Assembly (NCBI GenBank): GCA_012735575.1
Contig: JAAYGY010000050.1
Location: forward strand, 9,020 to 73,019
Source: Clostridiales bacterium
GTDB lineage: Bacteria; Bacillota; Clostridia; Caldicoprobacterales; UBA3941
DNA length: 64,000 nucleotides
Reading direction: 5' to 3'
Below are positions 7,699 through 54,009 of this stretch, one piece after another. The stretch's first letter is position 1, and each line of letters starts with the position of its first letter. The notes beneath the pieces were generated by a model. The model did no database searches. It was given only the letters and a program-made list of their open reading frames with translations, and had not been told where the DNA came from. The position numbers and the translations under genes are program-made.

Positions 7699-8949
7699 TT
7701 ACAGGCTGTATACTTTTCCTATGAAAAGAATTGAATCAGTTTTAAGGTCTGCAATTATAAAGACAAAGGGACGGTCTGCAGAAAAGATTGTGGGTTCTAA
7801 AGCGCTTGTTACCATCTCTACCACTGTTGCTGCGGCTGCCTCACTACCTTTTTCATTTACTTCTATTACAGCCTTGTGGAGTACGTCATATATAGACAGG
7901 TCATTTCTTATACCAGAAAAATCTGCCATGTCTGAGAATGCTTCCTCCATACCCAGGTCGATTAAGCAGTTCTTTAGGCTTTTTATGCCGTATTCAAGTT
8001 TGAAACGGGGTATTTTCAATATTACATCGTTTGTTTGTTCTATACTACTCTTGATATCATCCCATTTCTCCTTATCTAGATTTTCAACAAACTCATTTAT
8101 AGGAGTTTCTGATTCCGGCAAGATGCAGTACATGGCTAAATCACCCTTGCCATAGGGTAGTCTAACAACTTGAAAATCATTGCCCTGCCCATATTCCACT
8201 TCTCCATTTAAGGTCATCATCATTACATCCTGAGTGCTGCCATCACCGCCATGAAATGGGGCATTATAGGTATTCTTTTCATCGAATTTCTTGGTCCATT
8301 CTCCTTTAAAATATATGGCGTTTATAAGATACATAAGAGTTTCTGGTGCTATGGGCGGTTCTATCATTTCCTTTATTTTTTGTTTGGTAGCTTGGGATAT
8401 CCAGTCATTGATTGTATGGGCAGCACTGTCCTTAGAAAAATCCAGCTCCTCTATAAAAGCATAATAGTATTCTTTATTTACTGAAAGGAAATTTTCTAAA
8501 ATAGGTTCGCCATCTCTTATCCAGATTGAATTGGCCATATTTAGTTCAACCTTCTTGTCTAGCCTGTTTAAATACTGCAGTATATTTTTATAATTTTCAT
8601 TCAGAGTTTCCAAATCCATATTAGTGTATTCCAGAGTTTTTGCCATAACTTCCTTGGTAGTACTTTGAGCACCCTGGTAAGTCATGGCAAGGGCAGTGGA
8701 TATACTTATAGGGGATATAATTATGTTTTTATCTTTATCCTCACTATTTATCTGTCTAAAGATTTTAAAGGCAAATTCAGTATTCCTTGAAACAAAATCT
8801 GAATCTACTTTATTTGTTGTAATATTATTTGCAGACTTGGTATTGGGTATATTATCTGATATATTATCTGATGACAGATCAAGAGAACATCCTATAACCA
8901 AGCCGAGGGATATGGTTATACACAATAGAAGACATAGACACACTTTCAT
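7699..8949 (-). CDS. Serpin family protein, predicted lipoprotein, inhibitory-type reactive-centre loop
   Basis: Serpin length and C-terminal signature NEKGSEAAAATVVEMVTSALEPTIFSADRPFVFII (hinge E-K-G-S-E-A-A-A-A). Signal peptide with lipobox LVIG-C. The ATG at 8949 is preceded by GGAGG (ggaggatttaatATG). The track start at 9000 has no RBS. Confidence 0.85.
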   Translation of the reverse strand: MKVCLCLLLCITISLGLVIGCSLDLSSDNISDNIPNTKSANNITTNKVDSDFVSRNTEFAFKIFRQINSEDKDKNIIISPISISTALAMTYQGAQSTTKEVMAKTLEYTNMDLETLNENYKNILQYLNRLDKKVELNMANSIWIRDGEPILENFLSVNKEYYYAFIEELDFSKDSAAHTINDWISQATKQKIKEMIEPPIAPETLMYLINAIYFKGEWTKKFDEKNTYNAPFHGGDGSTQDVMMMTLNGEVEYGQGNDFQVVRLPYGKGDLAMYCILPESETPINEFVENLDKEKWDDIKSSIEQTNDVILKIPRFKLEYGIKSLKNCLIDLGMEEAFSDMADFSGIRNDLSIYDVLHKAVIEVNEKGSEAAAATVVEMVTSALEPTIFSADRPFVFIIADLKTDSILFIGKVYSL

Positions 8950-9100: not shown

Positions 9101-9362
9101 AGAAAAGAGATCAAGATTTTCTGAGATATCCGTGTCGCTTTTATTTTGAACCTACATTGTAAATAAGGGAGTCCAAATCTAAAGGACTGATATCAGGCCT
9201 TTGTAAGTCCAATATGGCAGGGGAAGATAGATGCCTTTATGAGGACACCCACCTATCCGAGAGATAGGTGTCAAAATAGGGGCAACGGTATCTTGGATAA
9301 TGTATTAGAAATTTGATTATAAGACCATAAGTGCGTACAGACAACACTTATGGTCTTTTTTG
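9101..9362 (+). ncRNA. Unassigned structured RNA (about 260 nt) bounded by a promoter and an intrinsic terminator
   Basis: No ORF. Long-range closing helix: atcaagattttct (about 9110-9122) with agaaatttgat (about 9308-9320), and agata..ccgt (9123-9134) with acggtatct (9284-9292). Internal hairpins: cacctat-ccgagag-ataggtg and ggca..tgcc. Terminator: aagaccataagtg...cacttatggtctt followed by T6 (9321-9362). Confidence 0.5.
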
Positions 9363-13204: not shown

Positions 13205-14485
13205 TTATGCCTTTATTGTATCAGCATCTTTATTATTATCGTGCTGTGCCAGGGGGCTTGAGAACAGTACCAGTACTGCACATGCAACATAAAGAATTAT
13301 ATTAAGGACAAAGGGTAGTATCCTGTTGATCTCAGACAGTTTTCCCGTTATCCAACCAAAAGGAGAAGTAATGGCAAGCATCATAACAGACATTAGACCT
13401 ACAATCCTTGCCCGCTCCTTGGGATCTACAGATAGAACCAGCAGGGAATCCTTTCTGGGAATCAACAATGCATGGGCAAAGGATTCACACAGCATATAGA
13501 GGAGAAGAATGCCATAGCCTTGAGGTTTAGACAATATAAGGAGGGTATTACTCAAAATATATAAACCAGCACCAATGGTCATTACAGGCTTATAAGGCAA
13601 GTCATTTATAAAAGCCTGAACCGTAAAAATAAATATCAGCATGACAGCCGCCCGAACTATGGGGAAATAGGCAATGTATGATTCCGGTATTAGTAAGTTC
13701 ATATTGATATACAGGCCAAAGAAGTTGTTGGTAATCATTGTGCCGATATTTATAATGGTCATTATAGCAAGTATCATTCTGGTAGCAGGGGTACGAACTA
13801 TGAGCAAGAATATATCCTTATATCCGGCTAGCATTTCACTTGTTTTTTGATTTTTAGTCTCTTCCAGTCTACGAAGTCCCTGTTTTGTTTCTGTGCTATA
13901 AAAATATAATATAAAGAACTTAGCTGTCATTACAATAAAAGTGAATCCATATATAATCCTCATAGCAGGTATCAATGTAGCTTTAGAAACCAATATTCCA
14001 GCCAAGGGGGCAAAGAAAACTGACAACAATCCTGATACAGTACACCATGTATATATACTTACCAGGAGATTAGGTGGACAATCCTCTACCATAAGACAAT
14101 TCCATGAATTACTGGTTATCTGCCACAGAGAATTAAAGATGGTTGCTGCAAGAAACCACCAGAAATTCTGTGATAGGGTCCAGATCAATGCAGGAATAGA
14201 CCATGATATCAGGTCAAAAATAAAGGTACATTTTCTTCTACCTAGCTTGTCTGTAGCAATTCCTCCAAATAGGGCAGCAAATACCTGAAGCACCGTTCCG
14301 ATACTGAGAAGGAGACCTATCTGTTGATCCTTTACACCTAGAGCATACATATATAATGTAGCATATGGTGCATAAAGATTGTAGGGAATTCCCCAGAGAG
14401 GTTCAGTATAGACACAGGCTTTTTGGTTGCCTTCCAAGTTGATTAGAGTATTTATTAGAGGATGTTTTTTAATCTGACTCTTCAT
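13205..14485 (-). CDS. MFS transporter
   Basis: About 12 TM helices and MFS motif A GGIATDKLGRRK. Confidence 0.8.
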   Translation of the reverse strand: MKSQIKKHPLINTLINLEGNQKACVYTEPLWGIPYNLYAPYATLYMYALGVKDQQIGLLLSIGTVLQVFAALFGGIATDKLGRRKCTFIFDLISWSIPALIWTLSQNFWWFLAATIFNSLWQITSNSWNCLMVEDCPPNLLVSIYTWCTVSGLLSVFFAPLAGILVSKATLIPAMRIIYGFTFIVMTAKFFILYFYSTETKQGLRRLEETKNQKTSEMLAGYKDIFLLIVRTPATRMILAIMTIINIGTMITNNFFGLYINMNLLIPESYIAYFPIVRAAVMLIFIFTVQAFINDLPYKPVMTIGAGLYILSNTLLILSKPQGYGILLLYMLCESFAHALLIPRKDSLLVLSVDPKERARIVGLMSVMMLAITSPFGWITGKLSEINRILPFVLNIILYVACAVLVLFSSPLAQHDNNKDADTIKA

Positions 14486-15976: not shown

Positions 15977-16002
15977 TTTAATGGCATATGAGGGGGATAA
16001 AA

Positions 16003-17175
16003 ATGGATATAAAAAAGGAAGCTTTGGAGTTACACCGTAAGTGGAAAGGGAAAATTGAGGTAGTAAGTAGGGTAGAGGTAAAAACCAGCAGAGATCTTTC
16101 ACTGGCTTATACACCAGGAGTAGCTGAGCCGTGTCTGGCAATAAAGGATGATGTAAATCTTTCCTACGAATATACCAGGAGATGGAATACTGTAGCGGTT
16201 ATTACCGATGGTAGCGCAGTGCTAGGTTTAGGGGATATAGGACCTGAGGCTGGAATGCCTGTTATGGAAGGTAAATGCGTGTTGTTTAAGGCTTTTGCCG
16301 ATGTGGATGCCTTTCCCCTTTGTATAAAATCTAAGGATGTTGATGAGATAGTCAATACCATCAAGCTTATATCTGGAAGTTTTGGCGGCATTAATTTAGA
16401 GGATATTGCTGCCCCCAGATGTTTTGAAATCGAGAGAAGGCTGAAAGAGGAATGTGATATACCTATTTTCCATGACGATCAGCATGGAACAGCTATTGTA
16501 GTCTTGGCGGCTATGATAAATTCTCTAAAAATTGTAGACAAGGACATAAAGGACATAAAAGTTGTGGTGAATGGTTTAGGTGCAGCAGGAACCGCCATAA
16601 TTAGGTTACTTATGAGCATGGGGTTAAAAAATGTGATAGCATGTGACAGAAGTGGTGCAGTATATGAAGGTAAAGAAGGGCTTGACCGTGAGAAATCGGC
16701 AATAGCAAAGGTTACCAATCCAGAAAAACTAAAGGGTACACTAAAGGATGTAATAGTGGGAGCAGACGTATTTTTAGGTGTATCAGCAGCAAATGTACTG
16801 ACCCAGGATATGGTAAGGACTATGGCCAAGGATGCTATAGTATTTGCTATGGCAAACCCTGTTCCTGAGATAATGCCTGATCTGGCTAAAGAGGCGGGAG
16901 CAAGGGTAGTAGGAACAGGCAGATCGGATTTTGCAAATCAGATAAACAACGTACTGGCTTTCCCTGGCATCTTTAGGGGTGCCCTTGATGTTAGAGCCAG
17001 TGATATAAACGATGAAATGAAGATAGCAGCAGCAGAAGCGATTGCATCACTCATTAGCCCTGAAGAATTGAACGAAGAGTATGTAATTCCTGCGGCTTTC
17101 GACGAAAGAGTGGCCAAGACAGTAGCTCAAGCTGTAGCAAAAGCAGCCAAAGAATCTGGAGTCGCCAGAATATAG
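16003..17175 (+). CDS. NAD(P)-dependent malic enzyme (short MaeA/YtsJ type)
   Basis: LSLAYTPGVAEPC, GLGDIGPEAGMPVMEGK, FGGINLEDIAAPRCFEIE and HDDQHGTAIV. The ATG at 16003 follows GAGGGGGA. Confidence 0.9.
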   Translation: MDIKKEALELHRKWKGKIEVVSRVEVKTSRDLSLAYTPGVAEPCLAIKDDVNLSYEYTRRWNTVAVITDGSAVLGLGDIGPEAGMPVMEGKCVLFKAFADVDAFPLCIKSKDVDEIVNTIKLISGSFGGINLEDIAAPRCFEIERRLKEECDIPIFHDDQHGTAIVVLAAMINSLKIVDKDIKDIKVVVNGLGAAGTAIIRLLMSMGLKNVIACDRSGAVYEGKEGLDREKSAIAKVTNPEKLKGTLKDVIVGADVFLGVSAANVLTQDMVRTMAKDAIVFAMANPVPEIMPDLAKEAGARVVGTGRSDFANQINNVLAFPGIFRGALDVRASDINDEMKIAAAEAIASLISPEELNEEYVIPAAFDERVAKTVAQAVAKAAKESGVARI

Positions 17176-17183
17176 TATTATCA

Positions 17184-17213
17184 AGGAATGGATAACATCC
17201 ATTCCTTTTTTTT
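17184..17213 (+). terminator. Rho-independent terminator after the malic enzyme gene
   Basis: aaggaatgga / tccattcctt stem followed by T8. Confidence 0.85.
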
Positions 17214-17329
17214 GTAAAAAAATCGTGTAAAATTCAAAAGAAATTAGTAAAATGATTCTTTTGGAAATATCTTTGGAAATAAAGGGAATGTGAAAACAAT
17301 ATCAAATAATAAAAGTATCAAATAATAAA

Positions 17330-17415
17330 AACTGTGATAAGGGCAAACTATCCGAAAGGGTAGGACGCAAAGTCAGGAGTCTAAGACATTTATGTTATGA
17401 CCGTCCGACTGCCAC
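17330..17415 (+). promoter_or_regulatory. c-di-GMP-I (GEMM-I) riboswitch aptamer
   Basis: GGGCAAAC-tatcc-GAAA-gggta-GGACGCAAAGTC-aggagTCTAAG...ATGACcgtCCGACTGCC matches the class-I layout: a GGCAAAC core, a GNRA-capped P1b, GACGCAAAG, and a P2 with a tetraloop-receptor-type arm. Confidence 0.85.
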
Positions 17416-17443
17416 AACATTTATTAATGGCAGTCGTTTTTTT
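17407..17443 (+). terminator. Riboswitch expression-platform terminator
   Basis: gactgcca (17407-17414) pairs with tggcagtc (17428-17435), followed by T7. The 5' arm is the 3' end of the aptamer. Confidence 0.8.
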
Positions 17444-17736
17444 GGCATAAAAACCCTGTTAAATGGAATAATAATGTAAAGATGGACAAATAAAAGATAT
17501 TCTATTCTAATCTATTGAAACTTATCAAAGGGTAATATATATAAGAATATCCGATAAGTATAAGAAGAAAGGTGATTATATGAATTAAAAAAAATCACTT
17601 ACAAGGAACTTATTATAGAACTAGATCTTTTGAACTAGAAAAATCAAGAGAACATTTTAAATGAGCATAAGTAAAATATTAATGGCCAAGGCTAGTAAAA
17701 GATAAGCGACTAATAGGAAGAAAGGCTGGGCTAAAA

Positions 17737-52990: not shown

Positions 52991-53346
52991 ATTTTCACCT
53001 CTCATACACAAGTAAGTCAAAGGATACAGGTACCAATCATCAATAATTTAATAGACCTTAGCAATGGTATTACAATATATTACAAATTATATTATACAAT
53101 ATGTAACGCCTTACAATTCTTAAAAGTATCTTAAAGAATATATGGTACTATGCTATTAATCCTTCACTTTATCACTTGATATGGCTACTGCTTTCAAGCA
53201 GGAATGTTCACTTGTCAATAGTATGGTAGTATTACACAGAATAGATTTGTATAGTACTTAAATAAATATGGTTGTGAATAGAGTTTGGGTATGCTAGAAT
53301 AAACGGGAGGATAAACTAGAAGAAAAGAATGATAAGGAGGAAAAAA

Positions 53347-54009
53347 ATGTACATAGTATTACTGGGTGCACCTGGATCCGGTAAAGGGACTCAGGGCGGT
53401 ATGATATCAGAAAAGCTATCTATTTCCCATCTATCAACGGGAGATCTTTTTAGGGACATTCTGGCCAATCCCGACCATGAATTATATAGTGAGCTTCAGG
53501 TTATTAAAGAGGGCAAACTTGTTTCAGATGAAATTGTAAATAGCGTAGTAGAGGATGGATTAAAAAAACCAGAGTACAAAAATGGAGTTATTTTCGATGG
53601 ATATCCAAGAACAGTCGCTCAGGCTGAGGCTCTTGATAAGATGCTGGAGGCAATGGGTAAAAAAGTAGATGTTGTCATAGACATTCAAGTAACTCAAGAG
53701 GTATTATTAGAACGTCTGTTAGGGCGTAGAAGCTGCCCCAATTGCAAGAGTATTTTCCATGTAAATGATGGTATAGATAAATGTCCTGATTGTAACCTTG
53801 AGCTTGTACAGAGGGATGATGATAATGAGCAGACCATTATGGAGCGATTTGAAGAATATAAGACAAAAACTGCACCTCTCCATGATTATTACAAGAAGGG
53901 AAACACTAATTATATAGAGATTAATGTTTCTGACTCTGCCAGAACGGCAACTAGCGTTAATCAGGAGATAATGGATAGACTAAGTGAGCTAGGACTTGTA
54001 CAAAAATGA
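53347..54009 (+). CDS. adk: Adenylate kinase with zinc-finger lid
   Basis: P-loop GAPGSGKGTQ, STGDLFR, and lid CPNC...CPDC. The ATG at 53347 follows AGGAGG. Confidence 0.9.
   Translation: MYIVLLGAPGSGKGTQGGMISEKLSISHLSTGDLFRDILANPDHELYSELQVIKEGKLVSDEIVNSVVEDGLKKPEYKNGVIFDGYPRTVAQAEALDKMLEAMGKKVDVVIDIQVTQEVLLERLLGRRSCPNCKSIFHVNDGIDKCPDCNLELVQRDDDNEQTIMERFEEYKTKTAPLHDYYKKGNTNYIEINVSDSARTATSVNQEIMDRLSELGLVQK

What the first reader, a model, noticed from the sequence alone, without database searches (positions are those of the whole stretch)
17330..17443. c-di-GMP-I riboswitch whose terminator 5' arm is the aptamer 3' strand (predicted ON switch), heading a two-component operon
Seen in sequence: the conserved aptamer 3' end CCGACTGCC (17404-17413) supplies the 5' arm (gactgcca) of the terminator hairpin, which is closed by tggcagtc and followed by T7.

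Inference: ligand-stabilised aptamer folding would sequester that arm and prevent termination, so c-di-GMP would turn downstream expression on.

Why it matters: known GEMM-I regulons are mostly flagella, pili, adhesins and proteases. A sensor kinase/response-regulator pair as the first downstream genes would couple a second messenger to a phosphorelay.
Basis: partly seen in the sequence, partly recalled or inferred. Interest (0 to 1): 0.65.

Follow-up and report, generated by a model that had tools for sequence, protein, structure and literature searches.

The report
c-di-GMP ON riboswitch before kinase operon
This is a genuine but ordinary class I c-di-GMP riboswitch, probably turning on a sensor-kinase/regulator pair beside biofilm-matrix genes; in most related bacteria a class II c-di-GMP riboswitch sits at the same spot.

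Summary
**Observation confirmed.**
- Window 17332-17416 (+) matches Rfam RF01051 (c-di-GMP-I) at 80.3 bits (threshold 35).
- A 9-bp terminator follows (17406-17414 / 17428-17436, then T7 at 17437-17443). Its whole 5' arm lies inside the aptamer.

**Predicted ON logic is well supported in silico, but untested.**
- The two folds exclude each other.
- The nascent RNA folds as the aptamer; the full leader prefers the terminator by about 7 kcal/mol without ligand.

**Downstream unit.**
- It holds a 94-aa remnant ORF, a HisKA_3 kinase and a REC-GerE regulator, and ends at a terminator at 20415-20437.
- A SipW peptidase and BsaA/TasA-like matrix genes follow.

**Novelty claim not upheld.**
- The 2007 GEMM paper already describes terminators overlapping the aptamer, infers ON logic, and lists histidine kinases among regulated genes.
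- C. difficile cmrRST is a riboswitch-controlled signalling operon.

**New here.**
- 50 of 76 orthologous kinase loci across Clostridia and Bacilli carry a c-di-GMP riboswitch upstream: class II only in 45, both classes in one.
- Class I alone occurs only in the window's small clade, at the same operon position and with the same terminator overlap.
- Two upstream operon genes have decayed in the window.

Verdict: new member of a known kind, modest interest.

The parts
17183..17207 (+). Intrinsic terminator of the upstream malic-enzyme gene (15988-17175). It marks the start of the intergenic region that holds the riboswitch.
   Evidence: 11-bp stem followed by a T run. Malic-enzyme Pfam domains.
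17245..17289 (+). Conserved upstream block containing a tandem TTTGGAAATA repeat (17260-17269 and 17272-17281). It is a candidate promoter or operator region; the transcription start was not determined.
   Evidence: Repeats found. About 35 nt are nearly identical in the syntenic locus L015 while the flanks diverge. No consensus sigma-70 promoter was called on the + strand here.
17332..17416 (+). c-di-GMP-I (GEMM-I) aptamer. It has a GAAA tetraloop hairpin (17348-17363) and a second hairpin carrying a UCUAAG/UAUGA tetraloop-receptor-like motif. P1 is UGUG 17333-17336 paired with CACA 17413-17416. Ligand-contact equivalents (Vc2 numbering) are G20 = 17342, A47 = 17369 and C92 = 17412.
   Evidence: RF01051 at 80.3 bits, E = 3.4e-14. 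In 10 related aptamers the structure including P1 is 91.8% paired and 17 pairs show compensatory change. Model position 11 equals Vc2 G20 (PMC9262584). The A47 and C92 assignments rest on my own count of the Vc2 sequence.
17406..17443 (+). Intrinsic terminator: 5' arm CGACUGCCA 17406-17414, 13-nt loop, 3' arm UGGCAGUCG 17428-17436, then U7 17437-17443. The 5' arm consists of five nucleotides of the aptamer's second-hairpin 3' strand (17406-17410), G17411, the C92 equivalent (17412) and the first two nucleotides of the P1 3' strand (17413-17414).
   Evidence: Read directly from the sequence. Hairpin energy -13.3 kcal/mol, overlapping the aptamer by 11 nt. The arm is conserved in four related class I loci.
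17444..17492 (+). Leader segment just after the terminator (GGCATAAAAACCC...TTAAATGGAATAATAATGTAAAGATGGACAA). It is conserved in all five class I relatives although the region upstream of the aptamer is not. Its function is unknown.
17567..17588 (+). Remnant of gene A, a signal-peptide protein in relatives. The ribosome-binding site AAAGGTGA (17567-17574) and ATG AAT are conserved, and are now followed at once by TAA.
   Evidence: Aligns with the start of gene A in L001 and L003 (MNLKRL...). Intact gene A follows the riboswitch in 15 related loci.
17737..18021 (+). 94-aa ORF. It is an in-frame deletion remnant (first ~70 and last ~23 residues) of a ~372-aa DUF5305 membrane protein (gene B).
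   Evidence: Alignment to L002:2966-4084. Intact gene B matches PF17231 DUF5305. The same 94-aa ORF was called in independent assemblies.
18014..19780 (+). Sensor histidine kinase, 588 aa: a multi-pass membrane N-terminal domain followed by HisKA_3 and HATPase_c.
   Evidence: Pfam hits. 99% identical to an NCBI protein named 'MAG: sensor histidine kinase [Caldicoprobacterales bacterium]', which starts at this ATG.
19777..20391 (+). Response regulator, 204 aa (REC + GerE/LuxR DNA-binding domain, NarL class). Its start overlaps the kinase stop codon by 4 nt.
   Evidence: Pfam hits. Best NCBIfam similarities are NarL, MadR and MctR, all below their cut-offs.
20415..20443 (+). Intrinsic terminator that closes the riboswitch-led transcription unit.
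   Evidence: 9-bp stem followed by a T run. Between the riboswitch terminator and this one, the only + strand terminator-like site is a weak 5-bp hairpin at 18121.
21206..25289 (+). Adjacent matrix-fibre cluster, the likely target of the regulator (inferred). It holds a secreted acidic protein with a weak SpaA-like domain (21206-22645), a SipW-type signal peptidase (22655-23242) and three camelysin/TasA/BsaA-like proteins (23269-23817, 23860-24567, 24630-25289).
   Evidence: TIGR02228 at 111 bits (cut-off 51.85) for the peptidase. TIGR04090 'BsaA family SipW-dependent biofilm matrix protein' at 82.2 bits (cut-off 60) for 23860-24567. Weaker hits for the other proteins.

Best explanation
A transcriptional ON riboswitch for c-di-GMP.

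**Mechanism**
1. Transcription starts somewhere in 17210-17330; the start site was not mapped.
2. The class I aptamer (17332-17416) folds first.
3. If c-di-GMP is bound, the junction holds the P1 3' strand, the C92-equivalent base and the 3' strand of the second hairpin in place.
4. Those same nucleotides (17406-17414) are the 5' arm of the terminator. The 3' arm (17428-17436) therefore cannot invade, and RNA polymerase reads through the U7 tract.
5. Without ligand, the 3' arm displaces the aptamer's closing helices, the 9-bp terminator forms, and transcription stops near 17443.

**Consequence (inferred)**
- Read-through transcripts carry a decayed leader (gene A start remnant, 94-aa DUF5305 remnant), then an intact membrane histidine kinase and a NarL-class response regulator. 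The unit ends at the terminator at 20415-20437.
- High c-di-GMP would therefore raise the amount of this two-component system.
- The regulator most plausibly activates the adjacent SipW/BsaA-TasA-like matrix-fibre genes.

**Shown:** aptamer identity, terminator overlap, domain content of the downstream genes, and conservation of the arrangement.

**Inferred:** ligand binding, ON direction, co-transcription of the kinase and regulator with the leader, and the regulator's targets.
For: **Aptamer**
- RF01051 at 80.3 bits.
- The fold, including P1, is supported by covariation.
- G at the position that selects c-di-GMP (alignment).

**Mutual exclusion of the two folds**
- Read directly from the sequence.
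- A transcript ending at 17427 has the aptamer with P1 as its minimum-energy fold (-21.9 kcal/mol).
- In the full leader the terminator state is -30.2 kcal/mol and the enforced aptamer state is -22.9 kcal/mol.

**Comparative support**
- The terminator arm and its overlap are kept in four related class I loci.
- Of 48 class II aptamers upstream of orthologous kinases, 42 have a terminator whose 5' arm overlaps the aptamer's 3' end by 9-23 nt.
- In C. difficile class II riboswitches are experimentally ON.
- The 2007 GEMM paper draws the same ON inference for this configuration. Bc2 and pilM are experimentally characterised ON examples.

**Operon**
- Kinase and regulator domains.
- Overlapping stop and start codons.
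- One strong terminator, after the regulator gene.

**Link to matrix genes**
- A SipW-type peptidase lies within 8 kb of the kinase in 43 of 80 loci.
- A BsaA-family protein is encoded next door.
- In C. perfringens a two-component system in the sipW-bsaA operon is required for its transcription.
Against: - No experiment of any kind supports this; ligand binding and termination are predictions.
- The promoter was not identified.
- 598 nt of decayed leader separate the aptamer from the kinase start.
- A promoter-like site (TTTGCA-16-TATAAT, 17895-17922) lies inside the remnant ORF. It could drive the kinase independently of the riboswitch, although such sites are no more frequent here than in shuffled sequence.
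- Genes A and B have eroded in this lineage. Close relatives show further erosion: L015 has a decayed aptamer and a truncated kinase, and L005 has a truncated kinase. The unit may therefore be under relaxed selection.
- The five class I relatives are too similar to show covariation in the terminator itself.
- Homology of this kinase and regulator to BsaS/BsaR was not tested, and the gene order differs.
Confidence: 0.72

Rival explanations
1. The riboswitch works, but it contributes little to kinase and regulator expression. They would be transcribed mainly from a riboswitch-independent promoter inside the decayed leader, with the riboswitch now gating mostly relic sequence.
For: - The leader is 598 nt long and made of gene remnants.
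- A promoter-like site lies at 17895-17922, upstream of the kinase start.
- In C. difficile cmrRST, additional promoters lie between the riboswitch and the genes.
Against: - Promoter-like matches are at chance frequency (17 found against 18.9 expected).
- The aptamer and terminator are intact and conserved in four relatives, while the sequence upstream of the aptamer has diverged.
- In L001 the leader has shrunk to 329 nt with the riboswitch retained.
Confidence: 0.14
2. It is a decaying, non-functional relic: the locus is eroding and the riboswitch no longer regulates anything.
For: - Gene A is lost and gene B is reduced to a 94-aa remnant.
- The syntenic relative L015 has a degenerate aptamer and a kinase lacking its membrane domain.
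- L005 also has a truncated kinase.
Against: - The window's aptamer scores as well as any in the set: 80.3 bits with Rfam, 97 bits with my own model.
- The key nucleotides and a full 9-bp terminator with U7 are intact.
- The kinase and regulator are full length, with all catalytic domains.
Confidence: 0.07
3. It is an OFF switch: ligand binding promotes termination.
For: - All functional class I riboswitches in C. difficile are OFF switches.
- Regulatory direction cannot be read from the aptamer class alone.
Against: - An OFF switch needs the aptamer and terminator to coexist, with a separate anti-terminator, as in Cd1.
- Here all nine nucleotides of the terminator's 5' arm lie inside the aptamer's model span; seven are paired in the folded aptamer and one is the ligand-contacting base, so the two folds cannot coexist.
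- I found no alternative anti-terminator pairing.
Confidence: 0.04
4. The aptamer senses a different ligand, for example 3',3'-cGAMP or an unknown molecule as proposed for variant GEMM-I families.
For: - GEMM-I includes cGAMP-sensing members.
- Two close relatives (L001, L005) carry a G in the conserved GAC triplet, and Rfam assigns L001 to the c-di-GMP-I-GGC variant family.
Against: - The window has the canonical GAC triplet.
- It has G at the G20-equivalent selectivity position.
- Its best match is RF01051 itself.
Confidence: 0.03

Closest known systems
GEMM-I / c-di-GMP-I riboswitches with a terminator overlapping the 3' side of the aptamer (Weinberg 2007, PMC1950547); experimentally, Bc2 of Bacillus thuringiensis (ON, read-through of cap) and the pilM GEMM-I ON switch
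   Same: - Same aptamer family.
- Same expression-platform design, in which the 5' arm of the terminator is the 3' strand of the aptamer. This is reported for 78 of 322 GEMM instances, with the same ON inference.
- In pilM the aptamer and terminator folds are mutually exclusive.
- Bc2 is a class I c-di-GMP ON switch acting by read-through.
   Different: - The downstream genes differ: cap for Bc2, pilus genes for pilM.
- pilM senses cGAMP.
- Nothing about the RNA itself sets the window's element apart from this known configuration.
C. difficile Cdi-2-2 riboswitch upstream of cmrRST
   Same: A c-di-GMP riboswitch positively controls transcription of an operon that encodes response regulators and a sensor kinase. 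The second messenger thus sets the level of a phosphorelay that governs surface behaviour.
   Different: - Cdi-2-2 is class II; the window's element is class I.
- cmrRST has two regulators, an invertible phase-variation switch and extra promoters.
- I did not compare the proteins, so homology of the two signalling systems is untested.
Class II c-di-GMP riboswitches upstream of the orthologous A-DUF5305-kinase-regulator operons in other Firmicutes
   Same: - Same operon and same position: upstream of gene A, or directly upstream of the kinase.
- Same strand and same terminator-overlap design.
   Different: - It is an unrelated aptamer fold (RF01786, not RF01051).
- Class I alone occupies this position only in one tight kinase clade, which is nested within class II-bearing lineages.
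C. perfringens sipW-bsaABCRSD operon with the BsaS/BsaR two-component system
   Same: - A kinase/regulator pair is encoded with a SipW peptidase and BsaA-family matrix proteins.
- There, the pair is required for sipW-bsaA transcription, BsaR binds the sipW promoter, and the signal sensed by BsaS is unknown.
- The window encodes a protein that passes NCBIfam's BsaA-family cut-off.
   Different: - No riboswitch is reported in that operon.
- The gene order differs: regulator before kinase there, inside the sipW operon.
- I could not obtain the C. perfringens sequences, so homology is untested.

Membership tests
c-di-GMP-I riboswitch (Rfam RF01051, GEMM-I) | Covariance-model score at or above the curated gathering threshold | tested here: met
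   80.3 bits against a threshold of 35, E = 3.4e-14, full-length match to model positions 1-87.
c-di-GMP-I riboswitch (Rfam RF01051, GEMM-I) | Two adjacent hairpins closed by a P1 helix, with a GNRA tetraloop and a tetraloop receptor | tested here: met
   - GAAA loop at 17354-17357 and a UCUAAG/UAUGA receptor-like motif in the second hairpin.
- Across 10 aptamers the helices are 91.8% paired and 17 pairs show compensatory change.
- P1 (17333-17336 / 17413-17416) has three covarying pairs.
c-di-GMP-I riboswitch (Rfam RF01051, GEMM-I) | Ligand-contact nucleotides (Vc2 G20, A47, C92), with G rather than A at position 20 for c-di-GMP selectivity | tested here: met
   - G17342 at model position 11, which equals Vc2 G20.
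- A17369 and C17412 are present at the consensus positions. Their mapping to A47 and C92 rests on my own count of the Vc2 sequence.
c-di-GMP-I riboswitch (Rfam RF01051, GEMM-I) | Specific, high-affinity binding of c-di-GMP | not testable with these tools
   Needs in-line probing, ITC or an equivalent assay.
Transcriptional ON riboswitch (aptamer acts as anti-terminator) | Intrinsic terminator (G+C-containing hairpin followed by a U tract) directly after the aptamer | tested here: met
   9-bp stem at -13.3 kcal/mol, followed by U7.
Transcriptional ON riboswitch (aptamer acts as anti-terminator) | Terminator and ligand-bound aptamer are mutually exclusive because they share nucleotides | tested here: met
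   - The arm 17406-17414 lies entirely within the aptamer.
- Enforced aptamer state -22.9 kcal/mol against terminator state -30.2 kcal/mol.
- The nascent transcript ending at 17427 folds as the aptamer.
Transcriptional ON riboswitch (aptamer acts as anti-terminator) | Ligand-dependent increase in read-through | not testable with these tools
   Needs single-round transcription assays or reporter fusions.
NarL-class two-component system | Kinase with HisKA_3 and HATPase_c domains; regulator with a receiver domain and a GerE/LuxR helix-turn-helix | tested here: met
   - Kinase: PF07730 (51.5 bits) and PF02518 (54.2 bits).
- Regulator: PF00072 (86.5 bits) and PF00196 (67.9 bits).
- No NCBIfam equivalog cut-off was reached, so there is no named orthologue.
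BsaS/BsaR system of C. perfringens | Sequence orthology to BsaS and BsaR, and location inside the sipW-bsaA operon | not tested
   - No C. perfringens sequence could be retrieved.
- The gene order differs from sipW-bsaABCRSD.
- Only the neighbourhood matches (SipW plus a BsaA-family protein).
DUF5305 protein (putative SipW-type signal-peptidase accessory subunit) | Match to PF17231 over the extracellular and cytoplasmic modules | tested here: not met
   - The window's 94-aa ORF has no Pfam hit.
- It retains only the two ends of the protein.
- The intact relative L002:2966-4084 does match (49.3 bits against a cut-off of 29).
- The window copy is a remnant, not a member.

The most novel reading that the evidence does not exclude
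In many Firmicutes, c-di-GMP would control TasA/BsaA/AbpX-type matrix-fibre production through a riboswitch-gated operon. That operon encodes a signal-peptide protein, a DUF5305 signal-peptidase accessory protein, a RegB-like membrane kinase and a NarL-class regulator. The riboswitch would be ancestrally class II. In the window's lineage an unrelated class I aptamer would have replaced it without changing the ON logic. This would give a concrete RNA-level route from c-di-GMP to biofilm matrix in Gram-positive bacteria, where such routes are poorly defined. It would also be a clean natural case of one riboswitch class displacing another for the same ligand at the same gene.
Probability: 0.45. 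Interest if true: 0.55.

Novelty: new member of a known kind. Interest (0 to 1): 0.33.

Why it matters
**The window's element on its own**

It adds one more well-formed example of a configuration described in 2007, so it matters little by itself.

**The comparative picture**

The pattern I found around it is more useful.
- A single kinase/regulator family, usually sitting next to SipW-type peptidase and TasA/BsaA-like matrix genes, is headed by a c-di-GMP riboswitch in about two-thirds of 76 loci from Clostridia to Bacilli.
- The class differs between lineages, but the terminator-overlap design is the same.
- A 2026 preprint on these matrix loci notes nearby kinases and c-di-GMP enzymes but never mentions a riboswitch.

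If confirmed, this would explain how c-di-GMP reaches matrix-fibre genes in these bacteria. It would also offer culturable test organisms, for example the Sporosarcina and Psychrobacillus strains with complete genomes (L024, L028).

Tried and rejected
1. **A second regulatory RNA in the leader or in the gap after the regulator gene.** An Rfam search of 17150-21300 at E <= 1 found only the one aptamer. A GEMM-like string at 20951-21001 scored 4.2 bits with my unfiltered model, so I rejected it.
2. **A shared operator motif.**
   - TACTAAAGTATA-like sites cluster in 20468-21006 but are not enriched across the window (18 found against 15.3 expected).
   - TTTGGAAATA has exact copies only at 17260-17281 and is at chance frequency otherwise.
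   - Neither motif links the two promoter regions.
3. **Reaching the C. perfringens bsa locus** by searching with the window's BsaA-family protein. There were 56 hits, none from C. perfringens, so BsaS/BsaR homology stays untested.
4. **Reading the 2008 and 2010 Science papers** on the two riboswitch classes. They are not held in the library. I used PMC1950547, PMC6366702, PMC11477304 and PMC8844915 in their place.
5. **A motif screen of the window's ORFs for GGDEF, EAL or HD-GYP proteins.** It gave only one weak HD-GYP-like pattern, at 53320-54009. This is uninformative for a 64-kb sample, and I did not follow it up.
6. **An HMM for TasA/BsaA-like proteins** built from close homologues. It found them in only 8 loci. 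The model is too narrow, so I use SipW presence (43 of 80 loci) as the synteny marker.
7. **Identifying the promoter.** No + strand consensus match lies between 17208 and 17331. A candidate -10 box (TATCAA, 17316-17321) aligns with TATAAT-like boxes in relatives, but it is weak, so the transcription start is left undetermined.
8. **Correction to my notebook.** An early note called the A-to-G change in L001 and L005 'A47G'. By my later count it lies in the GAC triplet, next to Vc2 C44, and is not A47.
Full report
**1. The observation**

- CCGACTGCC is at 17405-17413.
- The 5' arm gactgcca is at 17407-17414 and its partner tggcagtc at 17428-17435.
- The pair C17406:G17436 extends the stem to 9 bp. 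The loop is 13 nt, and seven T's follow at 17437-17443.

Rfam's c-di-GMP-I model (RF01051) matches 17332-17416 on the + strand at 80.3 bits against a gathering score of 35. The E-value is 3.4e-14 for the whole window against 4227 families, and the match covers the full model. It is the only cyclic-dinucleotide riboswitch hit in the window. A permissive search of 17150-21300 found nothing else.

The minimum-energy fold and my own scan both recover it at -13.3 kcal/mol.

The same 585-nt leader is 100% identical in four other assemblies, three of them NCBI MAGs. The closest kinase homologue is named by NCBI as coming from a Caldicoprobacterales MAG.

**2. Anatomy of the RNA**

The aptamer has these parts:
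- A first hairpin with a GAAA tetraloop.
- A second hairpin with a UCUAAG/UAUGA receptor-like motif.
- The conserved GGCAAAC and GGACGCAAAG junction strands.
- A four-pair P1 helix, UGUG 17333-17336 with CACA 17413-17416.

Seventeen pairs show compensatory change, and no shuffle or register shift comes close to that.

Model position 11, which the literature equates with Vc2 G20 (the selectivity position), is G17342. By my own count of the Vc2 sequence, the A47 and C92 equivalents are A17369 and C17412.

The terminator's 5' arm (17406-17414) is made up of:
- five nucleotides of the second hairpin's closing strand,
- G17411,
- the C92 equivalent,
- the first two nucleotides of the P1 3' strand.

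The aptamer and the terminator therefore cannot coexist.

**3. Energetics**
- A transcript ending at 17427, just before the 3' arm is made, has the aptamer with P1 as its minimum-energy fold (-21.9 kcal/mol).
- For the full leader, the terminator state is -30.2 kcal/mol and the enforced aptamer state is -22.9 kcal/mol.
- The aptamer thus forms first. Without ligand it is about 7 kcal/mol less stable than the terminator fold.
- From my memory of published Vc2 affinities (picomolar to nanomolar), ligand binding would be worth more than this gap. That figure is recalled, not computed here.

This is the standard design of an ON riboswitch in which the aptamer itself is the anti-terminator.

**4. 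What lies downstream**

The leader after the terminator is not empty.
- At 17567-17588 there is a strong ribosome-binding site, then ATG AAT TAA. This aligns with the start of a real gene ('A', MNLKRL...) in relatives.
- The 94-aa ORF at 17737-18021 joins the first ~70 and last ~23 residues of a ~372-aa membrane protein ('B'). B is intact in L002 and matches Pfam DUF5305.

Then come two intact genes:
- A 588-aa kinase (18014-19780): multi-pass membrane domain, HisKA_3 and HATPase_c.
- A 204-aa regulator (19777-20391): REC and GerE.

Adjacent genes overlap by a few bases. A clean terminator at 20415-20437 closes the unit. Between the riboswitch terminator and that one, the only + strand terminator-like site is a weak 5-bp hairpin.

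After a gap of about 760 nt comes a matrix cluster:
- a secreted acidic protein;
- a SipW-type signal peptidase (TIGR02228, 111 bits);
- three camelysin/TasA-like proteins, one of which passes NCBIfam's cut-off for the BsaA family of SipW-dependent biofilm matrix proteins (82.2 bits against 60).

Papers on archaeal and bacterial TasA-like fibres regard DUF5305 proteins as accessory subunits of this kind of signal peptidase. Genes A and B therefore belong with the matrix machinery rather than with signalling.

**5. Related loci**

I aligned 22 kinase homologues and fetched 80 genomic loci encoding relatives, from Clostridia, Tissierellia, Peptococcia and Bacilli. I then built covariance models for both riboswitch classes from Rfam-confirmed hits and searched every locus.
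- All 13 class II hits that I re-checked with Rfam passed its threshold.
- Eight loci with no hit were also negative with Rfam.

Of the 76 loci with enough upstream sequence, 50 carry a c-di-GMP riboswitch on the kinase strand within 2.6 kb upstream:

| Riboswitch upstream of the kinase | Loci |
|---|---|
| Class II only | 45 |
| Class I only (L001, L002, L003, L005) | 4 |
| Both classes (L057) | 1 |
| None | 26 |

The window is a fifth class I case.

The operon layout riboswitch - A - B(DUF5305) - kinase - regulator recurs under class II in 13 loci and under class I in L002 and L003. In other loci the riboswitch sits directly in front of the kinase.

A SipW-type peptidase lies within 8 kb of the kinase in 43 of 80 loci.

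In a neighbour-joining tree of 76 kinases, the class I kinases form one tight clade. It is nested among lineages that carry class II. The simplest reading is that class II is ancestral here and that class I replaced it in this lineage. The tree has no support values, but the clade is also obvious from identity levels: 59-76% within it and 49% or less outside.

**6. Direction of regulation from comparison**
- All four related class I loci keep the same arm and a 10-11-nt overlap.
- Of the 48 class II aptamers upstream of orthologous kinases, 42 are followed by a hairpin-plus-U-tract whose 5' arm overlaps the aptamer's 3' end by 9-23 nt.
- Class II riboswitches in C. difficile are experimentally ON.

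Two unrelated aptamers have therefore been fitted with the same kind of expression platform in front of the same operon. This supports ON logic independently of the folding argument.

ON logic also makes biological sense. High c-di-GMP generally favours sessile growth. In C. perfringens a two-component system encoded with sipW-bsaA is required for matrix-gene transcription. I could not test whether that system is homologous to this one.

**7. What is known already**

- The 2007 GEMM paper reports that 78 of 322 instances have a terminator whose 5' side overlaps the 3' side of the aptamer stem. It infers that more ligand means more expression. [quoted passage not shown]
- Class I ON switches are documented: Bc2 in B. 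thuringiensis and Vc1 in V. cholerae.
- The pilM GEMM-I switch has the same mutually exclusive design.

The window's element is therefore a new member of a known kind.

**8. What may be new**

I found no paper describing riboswitch control of this kinase family or of TasA/BsaA/AbpX-type loci.
- A January 2026 preprint on those loci notes neighbouring kinases and c-di-GMP enzymes, but the word 'riboswitch' does not occur in it.
- The C. perfringens paper mentions no riboswitch in the bsa operon.

The library covers only open-access papers. It lacks the 2008 and 2010 Science papers and their supplements, so I cannot rule out prior description.

**9. Caveats**
- Nothing here is experimental.
- The promoter is unidentified.
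- The locus is eroding in this clade:
  - A and B are lost in the window and in L001.
  - L005 has a kinase without its membrane domain.
  - L015 has the window's synteny, but its aptamer is degenerate and its kinase truncated.
- A promoter-like site at 17895-17922 could feed the kinase independently of the riboswitch. Such sites occur at chance frequency.

I put about 0.72 on the full statement: class I c-di-GMP aptamer, ON by terminator competition, gating the kinase/regulator unit. Most of the remaining weight goes to 'functional but largely bypassed' and 'relic'.

**10. Verdict**

Novelty is 'new member of a known kind'. Interest is modest at 0.33. What interest there is comes almost entirely from the comparative result, not from the window's element itself.

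Noticed in passing
L001-L080, upstream of the kinase (e.g. L037:7720-7803, L044:7760-7843, L024:6029-6112): Class II c-di-GMP riboswitches (RF01786) precede the orthologous kinase operon in 46 of 76 loci. Class I alone does so only in the window's clade. The layout suggests that one riboswitch class replaced the other at the same operon position.
   Followed up: yes
window 17737-18021 and 17567-17588: The 94-aa ORF is an in-frame remnant of a 372-aa DUF5305 protein. The 'M-N-stop' mini-ORF with a perfect ribosome-binding site is the remnant of the start of a lost signal-peptide gene.
   Followed up: yes
window 17444-17492: About 50 nt just after the riboswitch terminator are conserved in all five class I relatives, although the region upstream of the aptamer has diverged. 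I found no explanation.
   Followed up: partly
L015:7700-7850 and L015:7971-9287; L005:985-1070 and L005:1210-2448: L015 shares the window's synteny, but it has a degenerate aptamer (no GGACGCAAAG core) and a kinase lacking the membrane domain. L005 keeps a class I aptamer in front of a similarly truncated kinase.
   Followed up: partly
L001:155-239 and L005:985-1070: These aptamers differ from the window's by a G in the conserved GAC triplet (GGGCGCAAAG). Rfam assigns L001 to the c-di-GMP-I-GGC variant family (RF03167). I did not find out what that variant binds.
   Followed up: no
L037:522-602 (- strand): A class I aptamer with A instead of G at the G20-equivalent selectivity position (AATAGCAAAC). 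That is the signature associated with cGAMP-sensing GEMM-I variants.
   Followed up: no
L007:6643-6726 and 7808-7891; L045:6684-6767 and 7862-7944: Two class II riboswitches lie in series about 1.2 kb apart upstream of the same kinase. Each has its own overlapping terminator, and a gene lies between them.
   Followed up: no
L056:10409-10491; L080:11414-11497 and 13889-13973; L017:12075-12164: Further c-di-GMP riboswitches of either class lie downstream of the regulator gene on the same strand. In some genomes the neighbouring genes are therefore also directly riboswitch-controlled.
   Followed up: no
window 18014-18600 (kinase residues ~69-193): The membrane domain weakly matches the RegB/ActS/PrrB kinase family (NF033792, E = 2e-8). 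It carries an invariant TGG..SPFIWYA.NP motif; GGLDSPF resembles the RegB ubiquinone-site motif GGXXNPF (PMC3000548). This hints at quinone or redox sensing.
   Followed up: partly
window 20468-21006: Four TACTAAAGTATA-like sites cluster in the gap between the regulator gene and the secreted-protein gene. They include the window's only three matches with at most one mismatch. They could be regulator-binding sites, but the motif is not enriched across the window.
   Followed up: partly
window 17260-17281 and 17295-17326: Two tandem direct repeats lie upstream of the aptamer: TTTGGAAATA twice, and a 16-nt unit AA(C/A)A(A/G)TATCAAATAAT twice. The first lies in a block conserved with L015.
   Followed up: partly
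window 9115-9303 (+): A 6S RNA gene (RF00013, 75.7 bits).
   Followed up: no
window 20951-21001: The string GGGCAAACTATA...GATACGC looks superficially like the 5' half of a GEMM-I aptamer. It scores only 4.2 bits, so it is chance or a very degraded remnant.
   Followed up: yes
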